NCBI GenBank assembly: GCA_018813785.1
Contig: JAHJAU010000081.1
Location: forward strand, 1-59,687
From: Patescibacteria group bacterium
Lineage (GTDB): Bacteria; Patescibacteriota; Patescibacteriia; SG8-24
Reading direction: 5' to 3'
DNA length: 59,687 bases
The notes beneath the pieces are model-generated. The model saw only the letters and a program-made list of their open reading frames with translations. It was not told the DNA's origin and did no database searches. The position numbers and the translations under genes were made by a program. Shown here piece by piece: positions 8,160-38,236 of the stretch. How positions within the stretch are numbered: position 1 is the first letter of the stretch; every line of letters starts with the position of its first letter.

Positions 8160-8633
8160 TTATTCTCCATTAATCAGATTCATTATTCTTTGTTGTAAGC
8201 TAAACATCTCAATTTCATCCTGGGTGGTAGTGTGATCATGACCCATCAAATGAAGTACTCCATGAACCAGCATAAGAGCAAATTCCTGCAATATTTCACA
8301 TTTCTTTTCGATTGCCTGTCGATGAATTTGTTCACTGGATATTACTATCTCCCCCAGCAAGGACGGACTGGATTCATCGGTAGCATCAATAAAAATACCA
8401 CTGCTGTCGTCAATATATGAAAAAGATAGAACATCTGTCGTGCTATCCACTCCGCGATATATTCGATTCAAACGCTGCATCTCTTGATCGGTCACAATTG
8501 AAATATCAACGTGAACTGCCTGATATCCAGCGGAGCTTTGATAAGCCAAATCAATTATTTTTTTAACGAAATTCGCCGTAACTCCCGACGGCAATTGTCC
8601 GGAAATATCTGCGCTGACCATATCAACCTTCAT
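8160..8633 (-). CDS. ybeY: rRNA maturation endoribonuclease YbeY
   Basis: HGVLHLMGHDH metal-binding motif and TDVLSF. The ORF is open to 8717, but that extension overlaps the upstream gene. Plausible starts are ATG 8633 or ATG 8621, the latter 1 nt after the upstream TGA at 8623-8625. Confidence 0.88.
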   Translation of the reverse strand: MKVDMVSADISGQLPSGVTANFVKKIIDLAYQSSAGYQAVHVDISIVTDQEMQRLNRIYRGVDSTTDVLSFSYIDDSSGIFIDATDESSPSLLGEIVISSEQIHRQAIEKKCEILQEFALMLVHGVLHLMGHDHTTTQDEIEMFSLQQRIMNLINGE

Positions 8634-9927
8634 CTGCTGCGCCTTCAGTCGACGAACCTTCTTCGATTTGATTAAAAGACGGAGAAGACGGCAGGACAGA
8701 TGTTGCCCCTTCAGCATCGCTCGGTTCGATTATCTTGGCTTCTCCAATAAATTCCAAACTATTGGCCATCATGGATAATGTAACGCGATAACGAATCTTT
8801 AATTCACTGGCCAAATCGTAAGTTAAACCGACCACCATTCCGTCGTTAGAGACAAAAACTGTTCGTCGATCTGGTGTAATAATTTGTTCGTAGCCCTTAC
8901 GATTAATCAAATTCTCAAAACGATCAACTTTGACCAAACCTTCTATCGGAGCTTTAGCAAACCAATCGGCTAATGATTCTTGTGGTGATTTTCGATAAAG
9001 CGTAACTTTAATATTCTCGCTGGTGGCTGAAGTAAATTGAACTGTTTGTTCAGCTGGAATATCTCGAACATTCCAGGACTTAGGTCGATACATCTGGATG
9101 CCATAATCCTCATTGCGATAAACAGTAATCCCTGGATTATCAATCAAGCGAGCGGGATCACGCTTAGCCGGATCAAACAAATTCAAAACTTCATTCAGGT
9201 CAACATAACTGTCGCCATCACTATTGGCGCTATTCGGGTCACTGCCAAAAATCTCATTCTCTTCAACATCAGTTAAACCATCGCTATCGGTATCGAGAGC
9301 TTGTTCCGGCGGTGGTGGTTCGCAATCCTGCGGACAGTTAGCAAACGTCTCGCCTCGATTTTCCTCACACTTATCATCACCACAAACTGGCGGTGGTGGT
9401 TCGCAATCTTTAGGACAAGACTCGAAAGTCTCGCCGGCCTCGCAAGAACGGTCGCCACAAACTGGCGGTGGTGGTTCGCAATCATCAGGACAAGAAAAAT
9501 GATTCTCTGATTTTTCACACTTATCATCACCACAAACTGGCGGTGGTGGTTCGCAATCTTTGGGACAAGACTCAAAAGTCTCTGGCATGCTACACGTGCC
9601 ATCACCACAAACCGCTTTTTGTTTAGAAAAAAACAGAACATAGGCAGCCGTGCCGCCAGCTAAAAGCAAAATAATTATCGCCAATAATACGATTAATACG
9701 CCTAATTTACCCTTCTTGCCCTCGGCTGTAATGTTCGGTTCGGACGATCGTCCTTCGGTGTTCGGCTGACCGGCCGACGACTCCGTTCTTCTGGTCGGTT
9801 TAAGTTTTGCTGGCGCACCATAAAACGCATCGGGGATAACATGGATCTCCGTGTCTTCCTTGCTTGGACCTGATACACCCGAAGGTTTATCCAGCCCTAA
9901 CCCTGATGGTTTTAGTTCATCAACCAT
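8623..9927 (-). CDS. Type II membrane protein with four tandem CGDxxC..CPxDCEPPPPV modules, TSP3-like Asp repeats and a C-terminal globular domain
   Basis: 434 aa. It has a disordered N-terminus and one TM helix (LGVLIVLLAIIILLLAGGTAAYVLFF). Four Cys modules of 25-27 aa follow, then DTDSDGLTDVEE / NSDGDSYVD calcium-binding-type repeats. Confidence 0.8.
   Translation of the reverse strand: MVDELKPSGLGLDKPSGVSGPSKEDTEIHVIPDAFYGAPAKLKPTRRTESSAGQPNTEGRSSEPNITAEGKKGKLGVLIVLLAIIILLLAGGTAAYVLFFSKQKAVCGDGTCSMPETFESCPKDCEPPPPVCGDDKCEKSENHFSCPDDCEPPPPVCGDRSCEAGETFESCPKDCEPPPPVCGDDKCEENRGETFANCPQDCEPPPPEQALDTDSDGLTDVEENEIFGSDPNSANSDGDSYVDLNEVLNLFDPAKRDPARLIDNPGITVYRNEDYGIQMYRPKSWNVRDIPAEQTVQFTSATSENIKVTLYRKSPQESLADWFAKAPIEGLVKVDRFENLINRKGYEQIITPDRRTVFVSNDGMVVGLTYDLASELKIRYRVTLSMMANSLEFIGEAKIIEPSDAEGATSVLPSSPSFNQIEEGSSTEGAADEG
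9290..9612 (-). repeat. In-frame tandem DNA repeat (4 units of 75-81 bp) inside CDS 8623-9927
   Basis: The 20-mer GGCGGTGGTGGTTCGCAATC occurs at 9308, 9389, 9464 and 9539 (plus-strand coordinates). It encodes the CEPPPP ends of the Cys modules. Confidence 0.9.
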
Positions 9928-9942
9928 AAATTCCAGCCAAGA

Positions 9943-10695
9943 TTATTGGGGTAGATTGAGCAACTTACCCTCGCCATTCGGATTATATCCGGCCTTAACT
10001 TCTTCGCCATCGATATAACCATCGTCATCCGTGTCAGGTTTAGTCGGATCGGTATTGTATAAAAACACCTCTTCCCGATCAGATAAACCATCGGAATCGG
10101 TGTCAGCACTCTGCGGATTAGTACCGCGTTGCCGCTCTTCCTCATCACTTAAACCATCATTGTCGGAATCAAGCGGTTGATTAGCTGGTTCCGGTTCAAT
10201 AACCGGCTCGGTTGGTGTAGGCGGACAATCCGCTGGACAATCAATAGTTGTTTCTGAATTGTCGCAAACACCATTGCCACACAAAACACTCGCCGCCAAC
10301 TGACAATCACTCGGACAAATTATTTCCTCTCCTGGTTCGCAAATGGTATTACCACAAATTGAATCGACTGGTGGTTCCGGTTCAGGTGGTGTTCCCTCGA
10401 CTGGAACAGTGACCTGATTATTGGTCGGAGCTTCATTGGTCAAATTCAATAACTCCGAATCAGCGCTTGTATCACGCAAATAAAAATACCAAACTCCACC
10501 CCCGATCAAAGCCACAACGACAAGAGCGATCGCGATGAACAACAATTTAGATGGACCACGCGAGGCGACTGAATTCGAGGATGATTGCTGATCGGTAGGA
10601 GCGGACACTCTGGTCGCCGAAGACGAACCGGCTGAATCCTTAGCTGGGTCAATTTCGGCAAAAATATCTTCTGGCTGATTTTGTTCGTCGAACAT
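9943..10695 (-). CDS. Type II membrane protein with Cys modules and thrombospondin type-3-like calcium-binding repeats
   Basis: 250 aa. It has a disordered N-terminus and a TM helix (LLFIAIALVVVALIGGGVWYF). CGNTICEPGEEIICPSDC and CGNGVCDNSETTIDCPADC modules follow, then DSDNDGLSDEEE, DTDSDGLSDREE and DTDDDGYIDGEE. Confidence 0.8.
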   Translation of the reverse strand: MFDEQNQPEDIFAEIDPAKDSAGSSSATRVSAPTDQQSSSNSVASRGPSKLLFIAIALVVVALIGGGVWYFYLRDTSADSELLNLTNEAPTNNQVTVPVEGTPPEPEPPVDSICGNTICEPGEEIICPSDCQLAASVLCGNGVCDNSETTIDCPADCPPTPTEPVIEPEPANQPLDSDNDGLSDEEERQRGTNPQSADTDSDGLSDREEVFLYNTDPTKPDTDDDGYIDGEEVKAGYNPNGEGKLLNLPQ

Positions 10696-10719
10696 ACAAC
10701 TTAAAAAAATAATATTATT

Positions 10720-11277
10720 TTATTCTCCTTCTGACTCTGGCGCTGATAAATAATGGCCAATAAACTCATGCTCCGAACCACTTTCTTCGCGTCCGCGAAA
10801 ACGTAAAAAAATAATTTTATCTTCTGGAACATCCAGAATCTCAATCTCGTGCGTAGTTGTCATTTCATCTTTTTTGATACTCCCGAGTTCATAATCAAGC
10901 GTTCGGCCATAATCAACGATCGAAGTCATGGGAATGGTTGTTGTCCAAGACAGAACAAATTTTCCTGCTCCACTTTCAACAAACTTAAACTCAGAAAATA
11001 TGTCGTAACTGACGCAATCAGAAAAACAAATTTTAACGCTTTCGTCTGGCGAACAGATCCCGTCTCCACATACACCCCTTTTCACCTGGATACCTTCATC
11101 TTTAACCCCTGAATTTAGACCTGAGTCTCTTTCAGTGGCACCAGTCGGACTTTTGGTTTGAGATATTGTTTTGTCCGAAAATAAATCACTTCTTCTTAAA
11201 ACAACAATAGCACTAATAACAACCAATAGAGCTGCAGCCAGTACTACTACAATAATGATTAAATTTTTATTGCTCAT
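10720..11277 (-). CDS. Type II membrane protein with one Cys module and an Fn3-like beta domain
   Basis: 185 aa. It has an N-terminal TM helix (LIIIVVVLAAALLVVISAIVVL), a CGDGICSPDESVKICFSDC module, then FVLSWTTTIPMTSIVDYG... typical of Fn3/PAP-N-like sandwiches. Confidence 0.75.
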   Translation of the reverse strand: MSNKNLIIIVVVLAAALLVVISAIVVLRRSDLFSDKTISQTKSPTGATERDSGLNSGVKDEGIQVKRGVCGDGICSPDESVKICFSDCVSYDIFSEFKFVESGAGKFVLSWTTTIPMTSIVDYGRTLDYELGSIKKDEMTTTHEIEILDVPEDKIIFLRFRGREESGSEHEFIGHYLSAPESEGE

Positions 11278-11310: not shown

Positions 11311-14300
11311 CTACTCTTCACCACACACTTTTTGGAAAATTGTACGCGCCAAAGTGTCGGCATTAATCGAACGACAAATATCAACAAATCTAGCAGATCT
11401 AGGCGTATCAAATTCATTTATCGGTTCGGGTAGGGCTGATTCCCACAAAGGTCTATGATTTGAGCATCCCCTATTACCACCCCTTGAAAGCACGAATAAC
11501 TCGACGTAGTCTTCGGCTGTATCACAACCGGGTAACGTGCAGTTCCTGGCCGCTTCAGCCACTATTTCAAGATTGACACTCGCTAAAGCGCTTTCTGGTA
11601 CAGGTACTAAACCATTACCAGCCGGAGGTGGTTCATCAGTCACTACCACAACATAAGGATGGGCGTTACGCCGCCAGGAAATACCATAGTCCCAGCCGTA
11701 ATCATTGTCTGGCCTCATCAAGGCATAGGCAGCGGCATAACTTGCCTCAACCCCCATATCATCTCTCCCGGGATCAAACTTACTTAATCTTGGACGGTCA
11801 CGATTCCAATCAATAAAAGTTTGTGGATCCTTATCACAAACCGGTCTGACTACATCATCATCCCACGCCCGCCAACAAAAAGAGTACATATTTCTTAGGG
11901 CAGTCTCAAACTCTGCAAAACTAACTAAATCCTGAAACGAGTGAGGTAGATATCGAGGACCTTGCCGAATATTCAATGTATTTAACTCCTTTTGTGAAAT
12001 AGTAACGAAACCGAATCTATGGTCACCTGTGCCAGCCGCGTTAACTTGTCGGGCTAAATCGCTCAAAGCATTTATAACGGAATCTATAACGTTATTCATT
12101 GTTCCAGTTACATCTATTACGAAAACCATGTCTACGCGATTGCGCAAATGTAGAGCGTCATCAGCTCTAGCATTACAATCATTATCAATGCCGTCGCAGC
12201 TGGTTTCCAAACCAGCTGGCACTACAATACCGGTATCAGGGATTAAATAGCGTGGATGAGCAGTGGCGTTATCCTTTACACAATCAAAATCATCTGGCAC
12301 ACCATCGTTGTCATCATCTGGATCGCATGAATCAGGCAGACGAGTTTCTTGAGTCTCATCAACAAGCCAGTGTTGCCGTTCTACACAAAATTCTCGCAAT
12401 TGAGGATCAAAAACCGTATCACATCTTTCTAGTGGTGCAGGGCCACTCCCAATAACGTAGGCTCTACAGGCAGGGCAATCGAGATTGTCCGAGCCGCCAA
12501 TTACAGCCAGCCCTGATTCTATTTCACATATCTCTGATTCTCTATCTGCACAATCTAAGACACAAGACGCATCAGAACAAATAGCGTAGCCAGTTTGTGC
12601 ACCAAAACTTTGGTCTTGTAGCCGAGTACTTACACACAGACGACTTGAATTGGGAGTATATAAAACCGGCTCGCATATTTCTGGTCCGGCTGGAATAGAT
12701 GCAGGTCCTTGGATATCACCATCACCGCAATATGGACCGGAGACCGTGCCAATTCGGCAGGCCGGGGTGCAATAAGTACACAGTCGACCATAGGTCGGCG
12801 TACAACGCGTGCCGTTACGCGCTCCGTCGTCACACAACTCACCACCCGCCCAATTAACAAAACCGTCACCACAAACATTGTTGCGACAGGTGTTGGTGCA
12901 AGTGTCGTTATTTTCGATGTTACCGTCATCGCACTCCTCGCCGGTTTCTCGCATACCATTGCCACAGCGCCCCGGCGCAGTACAAGCCCAAGCACTCCAC
13001 TGACAGGCAGTGGGGTCATCACGATCAGAGGCCGGATTATTCGCTCCACAAGATCGAGTAAACCGCTGATCGACCGTCGGGCAAAAGACACACAAACCAC
13101 CATCTTCGGCACAATCAGCATTAGTGGCACAAGCACGACCATTGGGTCGTCGAACGTCACCACTGGTACCGATGCAAGCACCGCGACTGGTTTGAATACC
13201 ACCGTCGCATTGTTCAGTTCCGTTTATAATACCGTCTCCACAACGCGGTGCCGGACCACGACAATCCCAGGAACAGCTATCAACGTTGACTCCTCTGACA
13301 GCTCCCCCGGCACACGCAACTCCAGAACCAGCCAAAATACCATTCAAATAATAACGACCATTGCTCGCTCCACAATCACAAACTTCACTTGGGTGTGGTA
13401 AACCATCCCCGCAACGGAAACCAAGAGTCTTACAATTGGTACTGCAATAGCCGTATCTTCCATTCAACGCACCATCATCGCACCTTTCCTCCCGACTACC
13501 CTGAATAACACCATCACCACAATAACCCACCTCACAAGTCGCGGGATCGGGATTAACCGGAATAAATTCACGACAGGCGCGCGGCCCTTCGGTCTGACAA
13601 ATTTCCTCGCGAGTTCCCTCAACATCTCGCAACACGCCTTCAATTTCGGCCGAAACGTTACAAGCACCAACTCGTCGCTGACCAACTTCACAAATTTCGG
13701 GATCAACATCTGACTCATTGAGTATGCCATTACCACACTCGGCTCCTTCACCAAGCGGCACACCAGTACACGAATCGATCCCCCGATAACCACTCAACCA
13801 AATCTTCGTATCGGCATAGTTGCAGGCACCACCACTCCACTTACAACCCCTGGCCAGACAACTCTCCGAGTCAACCGGATCCAAACAAGTTTCACCCCCG
13901 AACTGCCAACTGGCGGCCCGACCGGCATCATTTAAATATTCCAAATCAGCATTAAGCTGTACCCCGCCACTCAACATGGAATATTTATAGATATGAGAAT
14001 GATCGCCGCAACGGAATTCACGCTCAGTTGAATTCCAGCAGGTATCGGCCTCAAAACCGGCTTCAACCGGACAAGCGGCAATATTATTTAAAGGATCTTT
14101 AGGTAAATTAACCCTAAGCCCTGACCCAAGAACCGCATCCCAAGATGGCCAAATACTATAAGTTCGCGACCGCAAAAATGTCCCCTCGCGCAAGGCTGGC
14201 GGCGAAGCAACCTGATTAATCGTCCGCCTCATATTTTGCAAATCCGCCCAACGTCGAACATCATGTTTAAATTTCGACTCCGGCACATCACAGGTGCCTA

Positions 14301-17300
14301 AGGGGCAATCAGCATCAATCTTACAGATAATATTATCTTCGCTGTCTTCGAGATGTGCGGCTGAGCCATCGTTGAGGCGACAAATATAAGTGTCGGCTAG
14401 ATTAGCATTAAAATCTAAACGACTGAGAATTTGATTAAAGACTGAGACGGTCTCGGCAGACGCACCATCGCTATAAGACATGACATAAACATTGGTGAAT
14501 AGGTTTATGCCACTCTGAGCACCAGCGTTCACGTACACCGTCCGTCCATCACGTAAACCGTCGTAACCGGCGACCGATAAAGATGAAGGCGAACCACGGA
14601 AGCCACGATCAACATACCAGTCAGCAATACCGCTATGTGTTCGATTGGCAGCGATTCTTAGACCAAAAGCATCATCACGCCAGACACCGTCCCTGCTCCT
14701 GACTGGATCGAAAGTAAAAAGATACTCTCGCATGATTCCTGGTGCCGGATCAGTCAAGCGAACAATTGATCGACCGCTGTCAGCCGGAGCCGTACCAACG
14801 GGATCTTCAATATTAAGATATGGTAATAGTCCACCAGCATCACCGGCACGCACCCCATCACGACAGTAATAGAACTCGACATTAGTCCAACGATCCAAGA
14901 ACGGGTACCAGACCCGAGAGTTCGGCGCACAATGATGAATTGGTGCTGGACCCAAGCCACCACCGTCATTTTGTTCCCAAGGCAATGAAACTTCACCAGT
15001 TGCAGAACAAGCCCGCCACTCCGGCCAAGGGTTGTTACACAACATCACCACTACATTACTACGACCGGCATATCTGGCATCTAGATCACCTAGGGTGGAT
15101 TCGGTAATAGTAATAGCTGCCTCCACCACTGCCTTCCCATCCTGAGCAATATAATCTTCTGGCCTGTCTCCCCGACGGCTACCCCTGACCCTGACCCGAG
15201 CTTGATTTGGTGTCAAAGGAAAAATTTCTTCAGCTGGAATTTCATCTTCCACTACTATCGGAGAAACTGGACCATCCTCAAGATCCCCACCATCCGGCTG
15301 TTCAGTCCAAGACAAATTCCAGGCATAAATTCCAGGCATGCTAACGATAGGCATGTCACCATCACTATGTACCTCAGCGGTAAACGCGTGTTCATCTTCA
15401 ATAGAAGAAAACAAATCTGATTCCGGATCAACACTAACCCGACGCACGCGACAAATCTCATCTCTGGTACCAAAATGAGCGATATTCGACTGAATCGTTA
15501 CTCCATGAGTAGACTTGGCGCCTGGTAAAACACGAACACGAAGCCAGGCATCAGCCGGATAAGGCTCACTCGGCCAAAATTCGGCCTCAGTGGCGCTAGG
15601 TGTCACCACCTGACCATTAACTAAGCAAAAATCAGCTACTGCTGGCAATGGAATGGCCGGTGCACCAAAAACTGGGCTGATAATACGCTGAACAAAACCA
15701 ACGACGTGCTGCCAAAGCCTGGCTAGTAGTCCGCGCGGTTGACCGCCCACCTCGGCTATGGCTATCGGCCGGACAACTTCTACGCCTTCACCACAACCGT
15801 CAGCATTATAGTAACCAACCTTTAGGTTCTGTTTAACGGACACTGAATCCATTGGTTGATCGAAAAAGACGCTAATAATTCCATTACGGCAAATATCGTC
15901 CCGACCAGCGACTGGGTCATAGGACAAAACTCTAGGCTTGGCCACGCAACAACCAGATACAGCACAACCCAACGGTTCATCTGGCAGGGGACCAGGAAGT
16001 TCACCTAGCCGGATCGCATCAACGATAGCTGCGCAATGCGCGTCACCATCAACTGCCACTCCACAGGTACAAGCGAGCGTTACTCGTGAATTACCCTCTT
16101 GTCCGGCTGGCACTTCAGGATGATCAGCGGTTACTGTACTAGTAGCCAAGGCGGGATCGTCAGTATCGTTATCACGTGACATAACCACCTGATAAGTATC
16201 GGTAAATCCGTCAGGCCCCAACATTCGACCATCACAACGCGGATGCTCGGCTGGCGCATTCAGGACACCATCACCACAAAATGAAGGTGTGTCATGAAAA
16301 GCAGATGAACCTTCGCGCAGACAACGATCACTGCAACCGTCATTATTACTGGCATTGCCATCATCACAGGCTTCACCAAAGCCTGCCTCCACAACACCAT
16401 TACCACAACAATTCATTGGTGGTGGATCACCAGGAACTGGAGGAGGACAAGCACCAACCAAAGCACCTTCATACAAGCAGTTGGCACTACAACCATCTCC
16501 GCGATTAGTATTGCCATCATCACATTCTTCGCCTGGTTCTGTTAAACCATTACCACAAGAACTAACGCAAAGCTCACCGGCTGGTGTGGCTATTGTACAA
16601 AGCTGAACAGTGCCTTCATTCAAACAGTCTCGACTACAGCCATCACCATCGCGAGTATTGCCATCGTCACAGGCTTCGCCATCAGCCCGAATTCTATCAC
16701 CACAAGTCGAACGACCGGCGGTTGATCCGAGCAAGATACAGCCCCAGCCTTCGGGTCGACCGTCGCCATTATAATCCTGCCTAGGATCCATACAGCCACG
16801 TGGGAAGACCAAAGCCCCGCCAGCTAATGGATCGGGAAGTGCATCACAGTTTTCTCCGACATTTATAGCTCCGTTACCACAAGCAGGCGGCTCGGTTCCG
16901 CTGACTAAACAATTACTGCTGCAACCATCACCATCCAATACGTTGCCATCGTCACAATCTTCACCGCGCTCTGCTGGCAGACCATTACCACAGGCCGGTA
17001 CATTGGGTAATGATCCGGTCATTAGACAACGATCGGTACATCCGCGAGGCAAGGTCGAGTCAGTATCCACCGTGGTCGTATCATCAACACGTAACGGCCA
17101 ACCTGCGGCGCTGACAAAACCACGCAAAACTGGATTGGGATTAATACCCCACTCCCAATCATACTCATCGGCTACCAATTCCAAACCGTCCGGATCACAA
17201 GTATTCGGCCGACTACGAGCGGTTAAATTCAAACCCAACCGCTGACCAACATAGTAAAGTGTGGCGTAATTTGGTCGCAACTCAACCCGACCAATAGCAC

Positions 17301-20300
17301 AACCTTCCGCGTCTTCCACCGTTCGGAATGACCACTGATACCAACCAGCGGTATTAAGACCGGTTAAAGGCACTAAACTAATCGAGGTAATTCCAGTTTC
17401 ATCTCCGCCTTTCAAACGAACAACGTAATGCGTTAATGGTCGCAAACGACCGCGTGGAACAATCGTCACTCGCATCATGCCCCGAGCCGGGTCGGCTGGA
17501 ACAGCCGGAGCGTCGGCCACCACAGCAAATGGAATGAGGTTAAAAGGCGGATTGCAAGAAGGATTTCGACATTCAAAAAGCTGGACATTGCCCGGAGCGG
17601 TCAAAGATCCTTCGTTCATTGGAACATTAAATTGTGCGTAAATCAGGGCGTTCGTGCAGGCTTCTTCGCAACCATCAGCCGGAGAAACCTTGGTCACTGT
17701 CGGATCAGCAAAAGCCACTCTAACTAGTGATACACCGCGTAGTGGCAGCTCACCATCATCCGGTGTCAAAGCACAAAACAGTCGATCTGATTCACCTTCT
17801 GGGGTTTCACGCTCGCCACTGGCATAGTACACGCAGTGAGCCCGAGGATGAGCAGGTGGTCTTGGCGCTGGGCTGATATGACCACCATCAATTGACCAAT
17901 CAATTCGATAGCCACCACCAGCAACACACTCCAACTCCACACATCTACCGTCTGTTGGAACGGCTTCAAACACGGTGTTTGGTACTCCTTGATGCTCGAT
18001 CGTGGCTCGTCCAGGATTCACAAAAACACCAGCAATCTCGCACGGCGTTCGATCCTGTTTAGCTCTAAAAAACCAACTGTAATCACCGCCCGGACGACGA
18101 TCAAAATTCCCATCCAAATAACGACCATCCATGTCTACGATACCAAAACCCTCGCCGGGGTTTGATCTTAAGGTAACTCGATACCAATAACCTGGACGGA
18201 GCTGTCTGTTCCCCGGTAAATCGTCGGGGTCAGCCGGATCATCCGGCGGGTAAGCACCGGCTTGTGGTCGAAAAGCAATTACGGTTCGTCGACCAGCTTC
18301 ATCCGCTTCAACAGCGATATTTATGGTTGCTCGATCAATTGGAACCAGCTCTCCCCCTGAACAGTCTAATGAATCACCGTTGCCACATTCCTCAAATAAA
18401 ATGCTGGCTGGATCTCTTAAAGATTCAGGCAACATTTCAGTCGTGAAAGCGACAGCGACCTGCGCATCCAAACAGACGTTGGTCAGTCGATCAGCCGGTG
18501 TGGGACTCTGACGAACTGGATGATCGACACCCAAAACGCAACTTCGCCGCAAAACCCGTGGGTAATTCGGTAAAACATTTGTACTAAAAAGCCAGCCAAA
18601 GGCACTATTTCGTTCATCCTGACAAGGATCGTCCGGCGTATGACAAGACCCGTCTCGACAACAAGTTGTACCCTCAGCACAAGTATTATCGACATTGCAA
18701 TTTTGAACATTAAACGGAATGGGGTTCCTGGCCCAAACGTTTTCAGCTACAACGTGAACCGGCCCGGAAACTGGCCAAGTTGCCGGGTTCCCCCGATCAC
18801 CAGGAACAACTGCTCGCAAACTGGTACCACCCCACGCCGGATACAGACCAGAGGCCATTGAAACATAGTCTGGTCTAGGCAAAAGATCCGACATGACTCC
18901 ACGCAAATAAAACCGCAATGAATTTTCTGGTCGGGCTGGGTTAAAAGCCCCACCCATAGCTGCCACATTGCCAGGGCCTGTACCAAACCCCTCACCTTGA
19001 ACTGTTATGACCGTGCCCGGCGGACCAGAAACAGGTGAAATCGAACACATTCCCGGCGGCACCGCAGCATCGGTCACTTCAAAACCAACTCGATTACTGG
19101 GCTGACCGGAGACACTCGTTATAACTTGAACTTGATAATCACCCTCTTCAACAAACAGTTCACCCTCGTTTTCTTCGATAATTTCCTGAGTTAGTCCAGG
19201 AGTACGCGGCACTTTAACCACAATATAATTGTCGTGCCAATTGTCTGCACAAATCGGCTCAAGACCCAGGGCAATATCATCACCAACTTCTGGCAGGAAA
19301 TAAACCTGACCACGCCGATTGCCAAACCCCGATCCTAAAATAGTTACATATGACCCAACCGGACCGGTAGCCGGACGAATTTCTTCTATTCTGGGACCAC
19401 CGGCTGAAGAGGATAAGCGTAAAGTAAAATTAGCTGGATTTGACGGCCTGACCCCACCCACAACAACCCGCACCGGATAGATGCCTTCACGAAGAACCGT
19501 TGGAACAATCGCTGTAATTAAATTAGCTGCCCAAGTCATGCCACCTCGTCCAATATCTACACCATCCATTCTGACCAAACTATCGCCTATCGCCGCTCCA
19601 AAACCACTACCATGAATATTGAAAGCACTACCAGAGGATCCAACTGACGGTTCCAGATAACAAATACCCGGCAACACATCAGCGGTAACAGTAAAATCAT
19701 GAACTGGATCACCAAATTCGTCGTCAGTTCTGTCAGCTGGTCCGGCGGCAGTAATTAACATCAATGGACCAGAAACTGCTGCCGCTGGCACAGCCACGAT
19801 AACTTCGTTGTGTTGCCAAGCAGCTGGATCGCAGGCTTCAACTGTAACATCATCAGCCTCACCTTCTGCACCCAAGAATACTATCCGACCGGGACGACTG
19901 CCAAAAAACCTACCACTAATAGTAATGAGACTACCTGGTCCGGCATCAAGGGGTGTTACGTCAGTAATAATCGGACGATCCTCGCATCGACCGGTATCTG
20001 GGTTGCAATAACCAGACGCGCAATCTTCGTGGGTCGTGCAGGCGCTACCTGGACAGCCTCGACACTCACCACCACAATCTTCTCCTTCTTCGCCCTGATC
20101 TGCGTCTATTACGCCATTGCAACAATGAGCCGGATTGATATAAAACTTGCGACCAGTCATAGCACCGGACTGCGGTACTCCATCAGCAGCCACTGCAGTC
20201 AAAGTATGTGGGACACCTGTTTCCAAACCTCGAGCGTCGATATAAATATCGTCTTGAATTTCAAAAACCTCAAAAGGATCTACAGGAGAACTATTGAAGA

Positions 20301-21348
20301 CAGTAGCTTCACCAGGATATGGATCAAAAAACTCATCGACCAGATTAGCTGCTCCACCATTAAGTCTAAAACTGACTAAGGTTGGCAGAAAATCATCTCT
20401 GGCTGTAGCCCGGATCTCAATCTGCTCACTGCAATAGGCTGGATAAGACACCGGTGAACCGATGCTGACTGTAGGAGGTGTAATATCAACCTGATTACTG
20501 AAAGCCATGGCCCGATCACATAGATATCGATCAGCTTCCGGTGAAGAAATATCACCCAGAGTCGGCCAACAAATTAATCGTCGGCCGCGAGTATCTTGTA
20601 GACCATCATTTACAGAAACGCGATACCAATAATCATGTTCAAAATAAGTCGGATCTTCTTCTGGACTGGCGTTCGGTCTAAAAATTATCCGATTTGACTC
20701 AATAGCACGAGTGCCAACAACTTCAACATCGCAGTCCGCCTCATTAAACGGCCGCGGCTCATCACCTGAGAGTCTGGGATTACAGCGTGTAACCGCAAAA
20801 GAGGCCGGGCTGACAGAGCCGGGAAAAATATCGGCTGTGAATGCTACTTGAATGGCGTAATTCTTTGGCCAACCATTATTTCGTGGACCAGAACCAATCG
20901 GTGCCACGCCAGCCACACTAAAAACACTGCGACTGCCAGGTATTCCTCCGCCACCCGGGCCACCTGGTCCACCGGCACCCTCACCCAAAGTTCCGCGCTG
21001 AATTGCACCCAGTATAAAAGAGGCAATGGCGTAGGCCGACATAATAATCACCAATCCAATAACTCCATTGCGCATCCAGGCCTTGGCCTTATCTATCTGC
21101 TGACTATCGCCACCAGCAGTCATCCACAAAAAGCCCGCATATAATATAAGAAGAACAGCAACGATACCAAGAAGTCCCAGAAATGCATTTATTATTCGAC
21201 CGATAGTAATCCGAATATCGGTCGAGGTTAAACCTAGACTCTCCCCATACTCCAAACCCAAATCAACCTGAGCCAAAGCCGGCAGGGCAAATATTGCTAT
21301 TCCAAACAGCAATATGATCAGAAATGTAAATCGTTTAGTTCTTGGCAT
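11311..21348 (-). CDS. Giant (3,345 aa) multidomain surface protein
   Basis: Single uninterrupted 10,038-nt ORF. Reading N- to C-terminus: pilin-like 2-TM N-terminal module, Ig-like segments, IPT/TIG units, two blocks of Cys-rich repeats, then a C-terminal VWA domain. Motif series and coordinates are given in the findings. Opposite-strand and off-frame ORFs inside it are low-complexity artefacts. Confidence 0.9.
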
Positions 21349-21366
21349 TAAATTAATAACTATCTA

Positions 21367-23607
21367 TTACAATCCAATGGGACAGGAAAATGGATCGCTG
21401 CCAGTGGCATTACAACAAGAAGCATGGCCACCCATATCACAACGAATATATCGACTAGGATAAAAACAATTCTGGCGTGAATCCTTAATACGAGCGCCGA
21501 CAACTGGTTCGTACAGCGGAATTCCTTCGTCGTGCCCAGCTGCTATTTCATCTAAAGTGAAGCCCAAATCGTTGGCTGTCAAAAAATCACGATGTAAAAT
21601 ATTCATTCTGGTAACTCTCACATCACCAATCACAACCGGTCCATCCCCGACACCAATAAAAAAGGCGGGGGGTGGAAGTGGTGGCAATGTTCGGCATGGT
21701 TCGGCCGGATCAGTACAATCCGCGGTTCGATCTTCCTTCTCGAGTTCGCGCGAGCGCAGAGCTATAGTTGTTCTCGAATCAATGAACAGCTCATCATCAC
21801 CCGGAGCGGCTGTTTCATTATAAGCACCACTGCGCATAGAACCGATGCCCATAACCTTGCTCCAAGTTATAGTAATCGGAAGATTGACCGGCACATTTGA
21901 TGGTCCGTCCGGATGCAAATCGTCAGCGTCTGGTGGGGGGACCTCTGCTAATGGATCTATTTGCGTAATCACCGGTTCAGTTAAATCAATAGTCGAGCCT
22001 ACATGGTACAACCAGCGAACCGAATCACCGTCACCGACTCGAGTATTAAGTATGTAATCACTAACACGTGGACCTTCGGCAACACCATTACTGTTACCAT
22101 CCAATGAATTTCCGACCATGTCGAGCGGGCCGTTGGGAGCAGCTGCTTTGGGTGGATCAGTACTCAAAGTCGCTGCCAGCGCCCGAACCCGAATTTCAAT
22201 ATTTCTGGGTAAACAATAAACCGGGTCACCACAGGAGTTAACGCTCACTCCCTCGCACGGTATGCTCGAGATAAACTCGACTGCTCTATAGCGTGGCCCC
22301 ATATTTACCGCGCCAGGAATTGTCATGAACGATTCGCAAGTGTCACCGGGAATCCAACAGTCGCAATCCGCACCAGGCAAACAACGTCCTTCCACTAAAA
22401 TATTGGTCAGACCTCGATCTGTCCGACCACTGCTGGTTGTTGGATCCATCGGTTCATTGAAATAAATTTGAAGCAACTGATTTCGTGGCAATATTTCTCT
22501 TTCAAGGGCTGGATTTATCACTGCCTCTGGCTCAACCGACAAAATCTGAGGTGGGGTTAAGTCCAGGGTTGTACCCGTGGTAAATGGCCAATAATAACCG
22601 CCATCAGCGTTCATTGAATCAAAAGCGTTTTCGACTTCTGGTTCTCCTTCTTCCTCACCTGGAACCCAAACTCTGACGCCGTTGTCACCACCACGAATAG
22701 CTACACGATATGTAACATCAGCAGTGGAACTTCCTAAATAATCTGTTGGCAGAATAACCAACGTCTGAAGATCCTGTGGATCAAACTCAGCCGCGACCAT
22801 CGAAACACGTGCTGTGGGTGGTGCTATCAATCCAGCGTCTGGATAACGTGAATTGAACCGATCATCTGGAACGGATCCTTCTACTGCACCCAAAGATTCA
22901 TTTGGAATTACTTTAAAATTGTCAGTGTTTAATTGCAAAACTTCAGGAATGATATCATCAGCTGTATCGTAGGTTCCATTGTCTTCGTAATCCATGAAAA
23001 CGGTGGATAGCACGAACGGTCGTTTAAATGTAATCGAAATATTCGTGTTTCTCGGTACATCAGTCTGCCCAACTTCTGGATAATGATATTCGATTATTCC
23101 ATTGCCTAAAATATGAGAACTACCACCACGCAATGAAGACAAGGATGATGAAGACCCGCCTCTTCCACCTCCACCCAGTAATGAAGCTCCAGTAATAGCC
23201 TGAAAAATAAAAGCGGTGATGGCATAAGCGGCCATTATGATGGCTAAACCAATCACTACGTTTATCATTAATTTTTTGGCTTGATCAACTTTTGAAGAAT
23301 CGCCGCCAGCGGTCATGTATAAATAGCCGGCGTAAATAAACAGACTAACTGCCAACAACCCCAACAGACCCAAAAAAGCGTTGATAACCCTGGCAACTAT
23401 CGTCCTGATGTCAGTTGTTGTTAAACCTATCTCAGCGGCATACTGCAACCCAACATCAGATGTCGTTAGCTGCGCAAAAGCCGCTATTGGAATGATTAGT
23501 AAACAAAAAAAACATGCACTAAATAACAGCACCTTGATAGCACTGCGCTTGGTACATTTCTGGCGATCCTGTTCGGACCAAACTAATGTCTTAAGCCTCC
23601 TTAGCAT
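21367..23607 (-). CDS. 746-aa surface protein with a pilin-like 2-TM N-terminal module and Ig-like (Big_5-type) domains
   Basis: The N-terminal module is closely paralogous to that of the giant ORF ([57 protein letters not shown]). A Gly/Ser linker follows, then repeated P..G.TDVP.N..I.I.F segments. Confidence 0.85.
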   Translation of the reverse strand: MLRRLKTLVWSEQDRQKCTKRSAIKVLLFSACFFCLLIIPIAAFAQLTTSDVGLQYAAEIGLTTTDIRTIVARVINAFLGLLGLLAVSLFIYAGYLYMTAGGDSSKVDQAKKLMINVVIGLAIIMAAYAITAFIFQAITGASLLGGGGRGGSSSSLSSLRGGSSHILGNGIIEYHYPEVGQTDVPRNTNISITFKRPFVLSTVFMDYEDNGTYDTADDIIPEVLQLNTDNFKVIPNESLGAVEGSVPDDRFNSRYPDAGLIAPPTARVSMVAAEFDPQDLQTLVILPTDYLGSSTADVTYRVAIRGGDNGVRVWVPGEEEGEPEVENAFDSMNADGGYYWPFTTGTTLDLTPPQILSVEPEAVINPALEREILPRNQLLQIYFNEPMDPTTSSGRTDRGLTNILVEGRCLPGADCDCWIPGDTCESFMTIPGAVNMGPRYRAVEFISSIPCEGVSVNSCGDPVYCLPRNIEIRVRALAATLSTDPPKAAAPNGPLDMVGNSLDGNSNGVAEGPRVSDYILNTRVGDGDSVRWLYHVGSTIDLTEPVITQIDPLAEVPPPDADDLHPDGPSNVPVNLPITITWSKVMGIGSMRSGAYNETAAPGDDELFIDSRTTIALRSRELEKEDRTADCTDPAEPCRTLPPLPPPAFFIGVGDGPVVIGDVRVTRMNILHRDFLTANDLGFTLDEIAAGHDEGIPLYEPVVGARIKDSRQNCFYPSRYIRCDMGGHASCCNATGSDPFSCPIGL

Positions 23608-26114: not shown

Positions 26115-26756
26115 TTATTCAGATGATATGTCGTATTCGACACCCTCAGTAAAAAAACGCATTTTTTCTGGAGGCCAGCCACGAAACAACACCTTTCCAA
26201 CTATAAACCGCTGAGGCACAGGTCCAAAAATCCGCGAATCCATGCTAGCTGTTCGATTGTCGCCCATTAAAAAATACTCATTATCTCCCAAGAGCATACT
26301 CTTCTCACCTGGAGTATAGGAGTTAACTAGATAGTCATTTTCCTCAAGACGATATCCATCGGGATATGCTTCATCATAGAGATAGACCCCGCCTCGAGAA
26401 ATTTCTATATGCTCGTTTGGCAAACCGATGATCCGTTTGATAAAAAACTGCCGCGGATCGTCCGGATAGCGAAAAACAACAATATCACCTCTCTCTGGCT
26501 GACCAAAACGATAACTAATTTCATCAATGATCAAATACTCATGATCGTGAAAATTTGGCTCCATCGAAGCCCCCTTAACGTAAAAAGGCTGAATCAAAAA
26601 ATATCTAATTGGCAAAATGATAGCTAGAGAAATAACTACAACATGCAACAGCTCACCAAAAAAATTTAATGTCCGCCGAAAAAAACTTGGTGCTTCCGAG
26701 TCATTTTGATCAGATACACTGATATCATCATTTATTTTGACAAAATCATCTTCCAT
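26115..26756 (-). CDS. lepB: Signal peptidase I
   Basis: GASMEPNF (catalytic Ser box), GDIVVF, KRIIGLPNE (Lys box), GDNRTASMDSR, and one N-terminal TM helix. Confidence 0.93.
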   Translation of the reverse strand: MEDDFVKINDDISVSDQNDSEAPSFFRRTLNFFGELLHVVVISLAIILPIRYFLIQPFYVKGASMEPNFHDHEYLIIDEISYRFGQPERGDIVVFRYPDDPRQFFIKRIIGLPNEHIEISRGGVYLYDEAYPDGYRLEENDYLVNSYTPGEKSMLLGDNEYFLMGDNRTASMDSRIFGPVPQRFIVGKVLFRGWPPEKMRFFTEGVEYDISSE

Positions 26757-37741: not shown

Positions 37742-38236
37742 TCAGAGAATCAATTTCAATAAAACCACTATCACTACAGCCTGGATCAAATAACCGTATT
37801 TCAACGGAACATCTCCTCGAAAAAATTTCTTTATTAAGAACACGTGATTTCTCATGTGCCAATCATGAAACTTGGTCAGCTGACGACCGGACCAACGAGT
37901 TCCTTTGGGTTGGGTGAGCTCGAATAGAGCGACCAGTAAGTCTGGCAATAAACCACCGACAATGCCAGCAGCCACTGCTATTTCTGCTGAAATCATGTGC
38001 CCTAAAGAGAAAATGATTGTGAGCATGATGACAACCATCAAAGCATCGAGGCTGGTGTGTATTATTGCTTTTCTAATTCCCCTTCTCTTTTTATAACCTT
38101 CATAAACTACCAGGTCACCATGCGGGATCATGTCGAGTAAAAAATGCAAAAGAAAACTCAAAGAAAAGGCGGCAGCCGGACTACCAACAGCGTTGCCCAC
38201 GAGAGCTCCAACCGAAGCATGAATAACTAAAAACAT
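37742..38236 (-). CDS. Integral membrane protein, possibly a DUF457/YdjM-like metal-dependent hydrolase
   Basis: 164 aa with 4-5 TM segments. His/Asp-rich loop motifs (HASVG, HFLLDMIPHGD, FHDWHMRNH) are present. The family assignment is tentative. Confidence 0.6.
   Translation of the reverse strand: MFLVIHASVGALVGNAVGSPAAAFSLSFLLHFLLDMIPHGDLVVYEGYKKRRGIRKAIIHTSLDALMVVIMLTIIFSLGHMISAEIAVAAGIVGGLLPDLLVALFELTQPKGTRWSGRQLTKFHDWHMRNHVFLIKKFFRGDVPLKYGYLIQAVVIVVLLKLIL

What the first reader, a model, noticed from the sequence alone, without database searches (positions are those of the whole stretch)
20995..23607. Two adjacent large proteins share a near-identical VirB2/TrbC-like pilin membrane module at their N-termini
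The first 120-140 residues of the 746-aa and 3,345-aa ORFs align almost residue for residue:
- [75 protein letters not shown]
- [75 protein letters not shown]

Each is preceded by a signal-like hydrophobic segment ending AxAQ and followed by a Gly-rich linker. The two-helix hairpin with the central (A/T)AGGD...KAK motif is the pattern of the T4SS-pilin-like (TrbC/VirB2) family. That family normally occurs as stand-alone proteins of about 100-150 aa.

Here the module serves as the membrane-proximal base of very large ectodomains, and no VirB4/VirD4-type ATPase is visible in the window. This suggests a modular anchor system that displays adhesin-like cargo on the cell surface.
Basis: partly seen in the sequence, partly recalled or inferred. 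Interest (0 to 1): 0.65.

Follow-up and report, generated by a model that had tools for sequence, protein, structure and literature searches.

The report
Giant surface proteins anchored by pilin modules
Two neighbouring genes of an ultra-small (Patescibacteria) bacterium each start with a conjugative-pilus-type membrane hairpin and continue into a large adhesin-like outer part, an arrangement that recurs in many related genomes and that I found described in no paper.

Summary
ORF A (21367-23607, 746 aa) and ORF B (11311-21348, 3,345 aa) share an N-terminal module that is 55% identical over 114 aa (E 2e-39), so it is clearly homologous but not "near-identical". Both modules pass the curated cut-off of Pfam PF18895 (T4SS_pilin) and fall just below it for TrbC/VirB2.

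Each module has a signal peptide ending AxA|Q, a two-helix hairpin and a Gly-rich linker. Three hydrophobic segments place the rest of the protein outside the cell. A's outer part models as a chain of Ig-like domains. B's carries TIG, Big_5, cysteine-rich acidic repeats and a probable VWA end.

This is not a one-off. A has more than 100 full-length homolog clusters and B more than 245. The ordered pair (medium protein, then giant) is syntenic across Uhrbacteria and Magasanikbacteria and made up 41 of 80 module-bearing loci sampled. Fused modules keep the same conserved residues as stand-alone pilins (r=0.86).

Most likely these are modular VirB2-like pilins, with a pilin foot and adhesin cargo. 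Whether they join a pilus or only sit in the membrane is open, because no T4SS gene lies nearby. I rate it a new variant of a known kind, of moderate interest.

The parts
21367..23607 (-). ORF A, 746 aa: the medium-sized modular pilin (signal peptide, PF18895 hairpin, linker, Ig-like ectodomain)
   Evidence: It has 109 homolog clusters, nearly all full length (534-924 aa) and carrying PF18895 +/- Big_5. The AF2 model has pLDDT 88.7.
23473..23607 (-). A residues 1-45: positively charged N-region plus hydrophobic signal segment, with a predicted signal peptidase I site AFA|Q
   Evidence: A45 is nearly invariant among 87 homologs. Cleavage is inferred, not shown.
23191..23427 (-). A residues 61-139: VirB2-like pilin module (helices 67-98 and 104-139, loop MTAGGDSSKVDQAKK)
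   Evidence: PF18895 scores 39.5 bits over residues 64-133. Helices come from the AF2 model. Invariant residues G94, G102 and G120.
23098..23190 (-). A residues 140-170: Gly/Ser-rich flexible linker
   Evidence: Sequence read. pLDDT is below 50 at residues 143-152.
21370..23097 (-). A residues 171-746: all-beta ectodomain, a chain of Ig-like domains with conserved cysteines
   Evidence: AF2 pLDDT is mostly above 90. Foldseek finds only tandem Ig-like matches, e.g. the LdtMt2 Ig domains at E 2e-5. Big_5 hit. Invariant C451, C459, C465 and C714.
11311..21348 (-). ORF B, 3,345 aa: the giant modular pilin
   Evidence: It has 245 homolog clusters at E<=1e-10. The best 120 are 1,935-4,142 aa and almost all carry PF18895 + Big_5 + TIG +/- DUF4215 +/- VWA.
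21271..21348 (-). B residues 1-26: signal peptide, predicted cleavage site ALA|Q
20995..21234 (-). B residues 39-118: VirB2-like pilin module (short helix 32-37, helices 42-77 and 82-120, loop [15 protein letters not shown])
   Evidence: PF18895 scores 41.6-45.3 bits over residues 48-112. The AF2 module model has pLDDT about 90 over the hairpin. The module is up to 66% identical to stand-alone pilins.
20899..20994 (-). B residues 119-150: Gly/Pro-rich linker
   Evidence: Sequence read. Stand-alone pilins end 0-10 residues after helix 2, exactly where this linker begins.
11314..20898 (-). B residues 151-3345: acidic ectodomain with 4.7% Cys. It holds TIG (~443-642, 769-795), Big_5 (1215-1343, ~1804-1846), cysteine-rich acidic repeats (~1540-1720, 2602-2640, 2794-2821) and a probable VWA domain (~3073-3120)
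   Evidence: TIGR02232 scores 152.7 bits. VWA is below the cut-off here but on record for homologs (PF00092/PF13519).
8623..11277 (-). Three co-directional downstream genes (185, 250 and 434 aa): single-pass membrane proteins with CGDGxC...CPxDC motifs, the last two also with TSP3 calcium-binding repeats. They may belong to the same surface-protein cluster.
   Evidence: TSP3 homologs lie downstream of the giant gene in 7-11 of 41 related loci. Membership of the system is inferred.
26115..26756 (-). Signal peptidase I (housekeeping type), syntenic with the pair. It is the presumed enzyme for the AxA|Q cleavage.
   Evidence: Peptidase_S26. TIGR02227 scores 139 bits, TraF only 27 bits. A homolog is present in 29 of 41 pair loci. 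The functional link is inferred.

Best explanation
A and B are modular VirB2-like pilins of a Patescibacteria (ABY1/Uhrbacteria-type) bacterium.

Proposed sequence of events:
- Each protein is exported by Sec, and its signal peptide is probably cut by signal peptidase I at AxA|Q.
- The pilin hairpin (two long helices joined by the lysine-bearing MTAGG(D/N)...AKK loop) sits in the cytoplasmic membrane with both ends outside.
- A flexible glycine-rich linker leaves the second helix at the point where ordinary pilins end.
- The linker carries an extracellular part: a rigid Ig-like stalk in A and a 3,200-residue multi-domain adhesin-like array in B.

Shown here: family membership of the module, the domain content, and the conservation and synteny of the pair.
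Inferred: topology, cleavage and surface display (my estimate about 0.8).

Fused modules keep the pilin signature residues as strictly as free pilins do. I therefore think it more likely than not that they use the same assembly partners as the small pilins encoded elsewhere in these genomes. They would enter a pilus-like or pilus-base assembly as rare minor subunits (tip, initiator or decoration), with the cargo pointing outward, and would mediate attachment to a host cell or substrate. My estimate for this last step alone is about 0.4.
For: - Family: PF18895 is matched above the gathering score in both proteins. There are sub-threshold but significant hits to TrbC/VirB2 (E 5e-5 to 9e-4) and to the Mycoplasma ICE pilin-like protein NF045849 (E 1e-6 and 3e-8).
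- Module structure: AF2 gives a short helix plus two long helices after the signal peptide, the same layout as TraA. In the F pilus both termini face outward and the inter-helix loop faces the lumen (PMC5018250). A C-terminal fusion would therefore project away from a filament.
- Topology: three hydrophobic segments after a basic N-terminus.
- Ectodomains: acidic and Cys-rich, with Ig-like/TIG/TIGR02232 domains; VWA is below the cut-off in B but on record for homologs.
- Boundary: stand-alone pilins end 0-10 residues after helix 2, where the linkers of A and B start.
- Conservation: column conservation of 77 fused and 132 free modules correlates at r=0.86, with the same key residues (G61, G72, W75, M76, T77, G80, A88, K89, G98).
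- Breadth: 109 A-type and 245 B-type clusters. The ordered pair occurs in 34 loci, with 7 more cut by contig ends, out of 80 sampled. It is syntenic with S21-like/HisRS/SPase I genes.
- Same-genome context: the Uhrbacteria genome GCA_001791745.1 has the pair (L002), a small-pilin array (L024) and VirB4 (Table S1 of PMC12102498).
- Literature: pilin arrays are essential in a cultivated Saccharibacterium (PMC10633639), and no PrgB-like adhesin was found for Patescibacteria T4SSs (PMC12102498).
Against: - No T4SS gene is in the window.
- The four small-pilin arrays closest to this module that I inspected have no VirB4-type neighbour within 10 kb.
- Two of four pair- or giant-bearing MAGs that could be checked are listed without VirB4, though these MAGs are incomplete.
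- Searches against solved conjugative pilins are not significant, by sequence or by fold (best pilin hit E 3).
- A 3,200-residue cargo cannot be accommodated on every subunit of a packed filament, so at most sparse or terminal incorporation is possible.
- No Patescibacteria T4SS pilus has been seen experimentally.
- No signal-peptide or topology predictor was available. Cleavage and orientation rest on hydropathy and sequence rules.
Confidence: 0.55

Rival explanations
1. Static membrane anchor only. The pilin-derived hairpin has been co-opted as a stable two-helix foot for envelope or adhesin proteins. These proteins stay in the cytoplasmic membrane and work independently of any T4SS or pilus, for example as a surface coat or as host- or mineral-binding fibrils.
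For: - The locus sits in a housekeeping neighbourhood (HisRS, S21-like, YqeY, FtsA/FtsZ), with no secretion ATPase in 59.7 kb.
- That position is conserved in 29-33 of 41 loci.
- The related small-pilin arrays are also not next to VirB4.
- Some carrier MAGs are listed without VirB4.
- Cargo size is sterically awkward for a filament.
- Tandem polyproteins of 6-17 hairpins exist, showing that the module can serve as a plain polytopic membrane unit.
Against: - A generic anchor would not need the loop motif and the extracellular N-terminal DLGL..Y..GL..D.R segment, yet these are as conserved as in free pilins (r=0.86).
- Fused modules remain up to 66% identical to free pilins.
- At least one genome has the pair, a pilin array and VirB4 together.
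Confidence: 0.35
2. Processed precursor. The linker is cleaved after export. Either the ectodomain is shed as a secreted protein, or a mature small pilin is released, by analogy with the C-terminal trimming of RP4 TrbC. The fusion would then be a delivery device rather than an anchor.
For: - A disordered Gly-rich linker lies exactly at the C-terminal boundary of free pilins.
- A conserved A-T pair just before that boundary occurs in both free and fused forms.
- An S26 peptidase gene is syntenic with the pair.
- C-terminal processing of TrbC-type pilins is established knowledge (my own recollection, not checked here).
Against: - The syntenic peptidase is an ordinary signal peptidase I (TIGR02227 139 bits), not a TraF-type maturase (27 bits against a cut-off of 100).
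- No conserved cleavage motif is evident in the linkers, which differ in sequence between A and B.
- There is no direct evidence of cleavage.
Confidence: 0.08
3. Artefact. The long ORFs arise from mis-assembly, a frameshift or a gene-calling fusion of a small pilin gene with a downstream adhesin gene.
For: None was found beyond the general caution that metagenome assemblies contain errors.
Against: - The same architecture recurs in 109 and 245 independent protein clusters from many samples and assemblers.
- Four independent contigs carry an identical A.
- 41 loci from different species show it.
- The AF2 model of A is confident across the module-ectodomain protein.
Confidence: 0.01

Closest known systems
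VirB2-like pilins and pilin arrays of Patescibacteria (Pfam PF18895; e.g. the essential pilin array in the T4SS locus of Ca. Southlakia epibionticum; PMC10633639, PMC12102498)
   Same: Same Pfam family and the same signal-peptide-plus-hairpin layout. Up to 66% identity to stand-alone members, the same conserved residues and the same phylum.
   Different: The described members are small (about 110-170 aa) and lie in tandem arrays, often near virB4. A and B carry 600- and 3,200-residue C-terminal ectodomains. They form a fixed two-gene pair in a housekeeping neighbourhood, and their modules form their own subgroup (G/M against S identities of 0.46-0.49 against 0.39-0.40). The papers I could search do not mention such fusions.
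Conjugative pilins TraA (F) and VirB2/TrbC (Pfam PF04956)
   Same: Signal peptidase I-type leader, a short helix plus a two-helix hairpin, and a basic inter-helix loop. [quoted passage not shown]
   Different: The PF04956 score is below the gathering cut-off. There is no significant match to solved pilins by sequence or fold. There is no adjacent T4SS. The host is a monoderm. I know of no natural large C-terminal fusion in the classical family (my own knowledge).
Modular type IV pilins (Streptococcus sanguinis PilB with a VWA module, PilC with a lectin module; PMC8179133, PMC9934059)
   Same: The same design logic: a pilin module that enters the filament with an adhesive module grafted onto its C-terminus. 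Related B-type proteins carry a VWA domain, which scores only below the cut-off at B's own C-terminal end.
   Different: This is an unrelated pilin class. Type IV pilins have a class III leader cut by a prepilin peptidase and a single N-terminal helix. Here the leader is signal peptidase I-type and the module is a two-helix hairpin. The resemblance is an analogy, not membership.
Surface adhesins of Gram-positive conjugation systems (PrgB-type, LPXTG-anchored)
   Same: Large multi-domain extracellular adhesins associated with monoderm T4SS biology.
   Different: A and B have no C-terminal LPXTG or sorting signal (their C-termini read ...SCPIGL and ...KVCGEE). Anchoring is N-terminal through the pilin hairpin. 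PrgB homologs were reported absent from Patescibacteria (PMC12102498).
Mycoplasma ICE pilin-like conjugal transfer protein (NCBIfam NF045849, Mbov_0395 family)
   Same: The modules of A and B match nearly the whole 80-position profile, at E 1e-6 and 3e-8. It belongs to a monoderm conjugation system, the class from which the Patescibacteria T4SS is thought to derive.
   Different: Scores of 28 and 33 bits are below the cut-off of 40, so A and B are not members. That family consists of small proteins.

Membership tests
Pfam PF18895 T4SS_pilin | Profile match at or above the curated gathering score (26.6 bits) | tested here: met
   A scores 39.5 bits over residues 64-133. B scores 41.6 bits (45.3 on the N-terminal fragment) over residues 48-112.
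Pfam PF18895 T4SS_pilin | Cleavable-type signal peptide followed by two long hydrophobic helices joined by a short polar loop | tested here: met
   Hydropathy segments and AxA|Q sites. AF2 helices 67-98/104-139 in A and 42-77/82-120 in B.
Pfam PF18895 T4SS_pilin | Small stand-alone protein (about 110-170 aa), the typical architecture of described members | tested here: not met
   A is 746 aa and B is 3,345 aa. The 120 best module hits are 90-171 aa. This is a domain-level family, so size does not exclude membership; it marks a distinct architecture.
TrbC/VirB2 pilin (Pfam PF04956) | Profile match at or above the gathering score (27.9 bits) | tested here: not met
   20.4 bits (A), and 19.9 or 24.0 bits (B). 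E 5e-5 to 9e-4. This indicates related sequence, not membership.
TrbC/VirB2 pilin (Pfam PF04956) | Encoded within or next to a T4SS gene cluster (VirB4, VirB6 and so on) | tested here: not met
   No such gene is in the 59.7-kb window, nor within 10 kb of orthologous pairs. The whole source genome could not be searched.
TrbC/VirB2 pilin (Pfam PF04956) | Fold similar to solved conjugative pilins | tested here: inconclusive
   Foldseek of the module model gives nothing below E 0.7. The best conjugative pilin hit is 8dfu at E 3. Helical hairpins discriminate poorly. The helix layout is compatible with TraA.
TrbC/VirB2 pilin (Pfam PF04956) | Polymerises with phospholipid into an extracellular pilus assembled by a T4SS | not testable with these tools
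   This needs microscopy or biochemistry.
NCBIfam NF045849 Mbov_0395 pilin-like conjugal transfer protein | Score at or above the curated cut-off (40 bits) | tested here: not met
   28.2 bits (A) and 33.3 bits (B).
Modular type IV pilins (PilB/PilC type) | Class III signal peptide / N_methyl motif and a type IV pilin N-terminal helix | tested here: not met
   Pfam scans of A and B show no N_methyl or type IV pilin family. The leader is signal peptidase I-type. The resemblance is an analogy only.
Sortase-anchored (LPXTG) Gram-positive adhesins | C-terminal LPXTG motif, hydrophobic stretch and basic tail | tested here: not met
   The C-termini were read directly. Outside the N-terminal module, hydropathy flags no segment in A and only one in B, an internal stretch at residues 514-536 far from the C-terminus.

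The most novel reading that the evidence does not exclude
These proteins are true minor or tip subunits of a conjugative-type (VirB2-like) pilus in a monoderm, ultra-small bacterium. That would be the first natural case of adhesin modules, including a 3,200-residue one, grafted onto a T4SS pilin. They would be the 'missing adhesins' that let the Patescibacteria T4SS/pilus find and hold its host cell. The conserved medium-plus-giant pair would then be a core host-attachment device of the ABY1 lineage.
Probability: 0.3. Interest if true: 0.75.

Novelty: new variant of a known kind. Interest (0 to 1): 0.55.

Why it matters
Patescibacteria are a very large share of uncultivated bacterial diversity, and most are thought to live attached to other cells. 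How they attach is largely unknown outside a few Saccharibacteria. Their T4SS and VirB2-like pilins are essential in the one system tested, yet no adhesin has been assigned to that machinery.

The pair described here is a conserved, genome-core set of giant surface proteins that start with that same pilin module. It gives a concrete and testable candidate for the attachment organ of the ABY1 (Uhrbacteria/Magasanikbacteria) lineage. It would also extend the 'modular pilin' principle from type IV pili to conjugative-type pilins.

If the module turns out to be only an anchor, it is still a distinct way for a monoderm to fix very large proteins to its surface without sortase.

Tried and rejected
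- PDB sequence searches. Searches with A, and with a 40-sequence module profile, found nothing. B matched only through a TIG domain.
- Foldseek, module model. No significant hit, only generic helical hairpins. Structural membership in VirB2/TraA stays untested in practice.
- Foldseek, full A model. Only generic tandem Ig-like matches and no enzyme or known adhesin head.
- TraF-type maturase idea. I asked whether the syntenic S26 peptidase is a TraF-type pilin maturase. It is an ordinary signal peptidase I, so I rejected this.
- Paralogy beyond the module. I asked whether A and B are paralogous outside the module. Only weak Big_5 motif similarity was found.
- VirB4 near small-pilin arrays. None was found within 10 kb in L024, L032, L089 or L090.
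- T4SS co-occurrence from Table S1 of PMC12102498. Only a few named MAGs could be matched, with 2 of 4 pair or giant carriers positive. MAG incompleteness makes this uninformative. Table S3 is truncated in the held copy.
- Literature. Searches for fused or giant PF18895 proteins found no description. One search failed on syntax.
- Assembly or gene-calling artefact. Considered and rejected.
Full report
**1. What is there**

Two co-directional minus-strand ORFs lie 18 nt apart. A is at 21367-23607 (746 aa) and B is at 11311-21348 (3,345 aa). The first 150 residues of each align with 63/114 identities (55%), 72% positives, one 2-residue gap and E 2e-39. The homology is unambiguous, but "near-identical" overstates it. 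Beyond the module the proteins share only faint Big_5-type motifs (best E 0.003). A six-frame HMM scan of the whole window finds only these two copies.

**2. Family of the module**

- Both proteins pass the curated cut-off of Pfam PF18895 (T4SS_pilin): 39.5 and 41.6 bits against 26.6.
- Both score just below the cut-off of PF04956 (TrbC/VirB2): 20-24 bits against 27.9, E 5e-5 to 9e-4.
- NCBIfam gives a further sub-threshold link to the Mycoplasma ICE "pilin-like conjugal transfer protein" NF045849 (E 1e-6 and 3e-8; 28 and 33 bits against 40).
- The 120 best database hits to B's module are all proteins of 90-171 aa from Patescibacteria, up to 66% identical, which sources name "pilin". B's module is thus closer to some free pilins than to its neighbour A.
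- In an alignment with 38 free pilins, those proteins end 0-10 residues after the second helix. That is exactly where the Gly-rich linkers of A and B begin.
- Searches of solved structures gave nothing for the module, by sequence or by profile.
- Foldseek with a confident module model (pLDDT about 90 over the hairpin) gave only non-significant helical-hairpin hits. The best conjugative pilin was 8dfu at E 3.
- The helix layout after the leader (one short helix, two long ones) is the layout described for TraA (PMC5018250). Structural membership is otherwise inconclusive.

**3. Topology and ectodomains**

Each protein starts with a basic N-region and has a hydrophobic leader ending AFA|Q (A) or ALA|Q (B). 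Two further hydrophobic helices follow, joined by MTAGGD...(D/K)AK. With three membrane-spanning segments after a cytoplasmic N-terminus, the C-terminal part is outside whether or not the leader is removed. This is an inference from hydropathy; no dedicated predictor was available.

The ectodomains are acidic and cysteine-rich, 2.4% Cys in A and 4.7% in B.

- A's AlphaFold model (87-sequence alignment, pLDDT 88.7, pTM 0.79) shows the hairpin, a disordered linker (residues 143-152) and an all-beta region from about residue 170 to 746.
- Foldseek matches that region only to tandem Ig-like domains: the LdtMt2 domains A/B at E 2e-5, plus CopC, Fabs and protocadherins. It therefore looks like a stalk rather than an enzyme.
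- B carries TIG domains (~443-642, 769-795), Big_5 (1215-1343, ~1804-1846), cysteine-rich acidic repeats (DUF4215/TIGR02232 at 152.7 bits; ~1540-1720, 2602-2640, 2794-2821) and a sub-threshold VWA start at ~3073-3120. Homologs have VWA hits on record.
- Neither protein has an LPXTG-type C-terminus.

**4. Context in the window**

The window is ordinary chromosomal DNA of a Patescibacteria-type genome. It encodes ribosomal proteins, SecY, FtsA/FtsZ, HisRS, AspRS/AsnRS-type synthetases, ParAB, TopA, DprA, RelA/SpoT and signal peptidase I. Nothing resembles VirB4, VirD4, VirB6 or type IV pilus machinery. An identical A is found on contigs of assembly GCA_018817185.1 and in three other datasets. 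Three single-pass membrane proteins follow B; all carry short CGDGxC...CPxDC motifs and the last two also TSP3 repeats.

**5. The pair is conserved, not a curiosity**

- A has 109 homolog clusters, nearly all full length (534-924 aa, 25-76% identity) and carrying PF18895 plus Big_5. NCBI names several of them "pilin".
- B has 245 clusters at E<=1e-10. The best 120 are 1,935-4,142 aa, and almost all carry PF18895 + Big_5 + TIG, often with DUF4215 and sometimes VWA. Most named sources are Uhrbacteria.
- Orthologous loci in Uhrbacteria RIFOXYC2_FULL_47_19 and GCA_964491475.1 show the same order: signal peptidase I, HisRS, (S21-like), YqeY, medium protein, giant protein.
- A scan of one genome per species with the module profile returned 80 loci. 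By my ORF/HMM analysis 41 are fusion loci. In 34 of these both genes are present, medium first and then giant, on the same strand. The other 7 are cut by contig ends.
- 35 of the 80 loci are arrays of 4-13 small pilin genes.
- Pair loci share the S21-like gene (33/41), HisRS (29), signal peptidase I (29) and YqeY (18). TSP3 proteins lie downstream in 7-11.
- In an exhaustive profile search the family has 65,230 representative clusters at E<=1e-3. Among the best 150, 43 have a single N-terminal module in a protein of 487-4,344 aa.

"Normally stand-alone" is therefore only partly true for this subfamily.

**6. Are the fused modules still pilins?**

Fused modules are a subgroup of their own. Mean identities are giant-giant 0.49, giant-medium 0.46 and medium-medium 0.455, against 0.39-0.40 to free pilins. 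Nearest neighbours fall mostly within the fused classes. This fits an old fusion followed by vertical descent.

They also keep the pilin signature. Per-column conservation of 77 fused and 132 free modules correlates at r=0.86. The same residues are near-invariant: G61, G72, W75, M76, T77, G80, A88, K89, I97, G98 and L99 in B numbering. A plain membrane anchor would not be expected to preserve the loop and the extracellular N-terminal segment this well. This is my main argument, an inference, that the fused modules still meet the same partners as free pilins.

**7. Link to a T4SS**

Published work reports the following.
- VirB2-like pilins (PF04956/PF18895) occur in 1,948 Patescibacteria assemblies, with arrays of 2-11 genes. 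No PrgB-like adhesin was found (PMC12102498).
- The pilin array in the T4SS locus of a cultivated Saccharibacterium is essential (PMC10633639).
- Whether a pilus is made is still open (PMC12857230).

One Uhrbacteria genome has the pair (L002), a small-pilin array on another contig (L024) and VirB4 (Table S1).

The link is nevertheless weak for this lineage. The four arrays closest to the module that I inspected lie between solute-binding-protein / NTP-transferase genes and (in three of them) an MGDG-synthase gene, with no VirB4-type gene within 10 kb. Of four pair or giant carriers that could be matched in Table S1, two are listed without VirB4, though these MAGs are incomplete. The syntenic peptidase is a housekeeping signal peptidase I, not a TraF-type pilin maturase.

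**8. Mechanism**

Best-supported reading: A and B are modular VirB2-like pilins. They are exported by Sec and cut by signal peptidase I. Each is held in the membrane by the hairpin, and the cargo is carried outward on a flexible linker (about 0.8 for surface display).

In the F pilus both pilin termini face the outside of the filament (PMC5018250). A C-terminal cargo is therefore geometrically compatible with sparse or terminal incorporation into a pilus-like assembly of the small pilins. A 3,200-residue cargo on every subunit is not compatible. I put co-assembly at about 0.4, the static-anchor alternative at about 0.35-0.4, proteolytic shedding at under 0.1 and artefact at about 0.01.

The nearest functional analogy is the modular type IV pilins of Streptococcus sanguinis, such as PilB with a VWA module (PMC8179133). 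That is an unrelated pilin class.

**9. Novelty and score**

The module family, its abundance in Patescibacteria and the tandem arrays are known. The proteins are in public databases under generic names. I found no description, in the searchable literature, of the following:
- the fusion of this pilin module to very large adhesin-like ectodomains;
- its occurrence as a fixed medium-plus-giant gene pair;
- its wide conservation and synteny in ABY1 genomes.

I rate it a new variant of a known kind, with interest 0.55. It is a solid and testable lead on how a major uncultivated lineage builds its surface, but the decisive functional link (pilus or anchor) is not established.

Noticed in passing
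Proteins P0350 (820 aa), P0351 (552 aa), P0357 (1,775 aa); sequences of P0350 and P0351: Single polypeptides made of 6-17 tandem PF18895-like hairpins. In the two whose sequences I read (P0350, P0351), only one N-terminal signal peptide is present. The VirB2-like hairpin is therefore also concatenated into polytopic 'polypilin' proteins. About 40 of the best 150 family representatives have two or more modules.
   Followed up: partly
window 8623-11277 (-): Three consecutive single-pass membrane proteins (185, 250 and 434 aa) lie directly downstream of the giant gene. All carry short CGDGxC...CPxDC cysteine motifs, and the last two also carry TSP3 calcium-binding repeats. TSP3 homologs recur downstream of the giant gene in 7-11 of 41 related loci.
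   Followed up: partly
L024, L032, L089, L090 (small-pilin array loci): Arrays of 8-10 small pilin genes sit in a recurring context. Solute-binding-protein and NTP-transferase genes lie upstream in all four, an MGDG-synthase gene lies downstream in L032 and L089, and no T4SS ATPase is found within 10 kb. Some array members carry the module at the C-terminus after a 150-350-aa N-terminal extension.
   Followed up: partly
window 26115-26756 (-): The signal peptidase I gene is syntenic with the pilin-fusion pair in 29 of 41 loci. It scores as ordinary SPase I (TIGR02227, 139 bits), not as the conjugative TraF peptidase (27 bits).
   Followed up: yes
window 39364-42909 (-): A 1,181-aa ORF has no significant Pfam or NCBIfam family. 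Smaller ORFs at 48218-49402 (394 aa), 37742-38236 and 624-1469 also have no family assignment.
   Followed up: no
L010-L088 record titles: Many of the species-representative MAGs that carry these Patescibacteria-type loci are titled 'uncultured Gammaproteobacteria bacterium'. Two protein sources say 'Candidatus Binatia' or 'Eisenbacteria'. These look like mislabelled or contaminated bins.
   Followed up: no
window 8160-8717 and 8623-9927 (-): As listed, the YbeY ORF overlaps the end of the upstream 434-aa ORF by 95 nt. The true YbeY start is probably further downstream; the Pfam match begins at residue 49.
   Followed up: no
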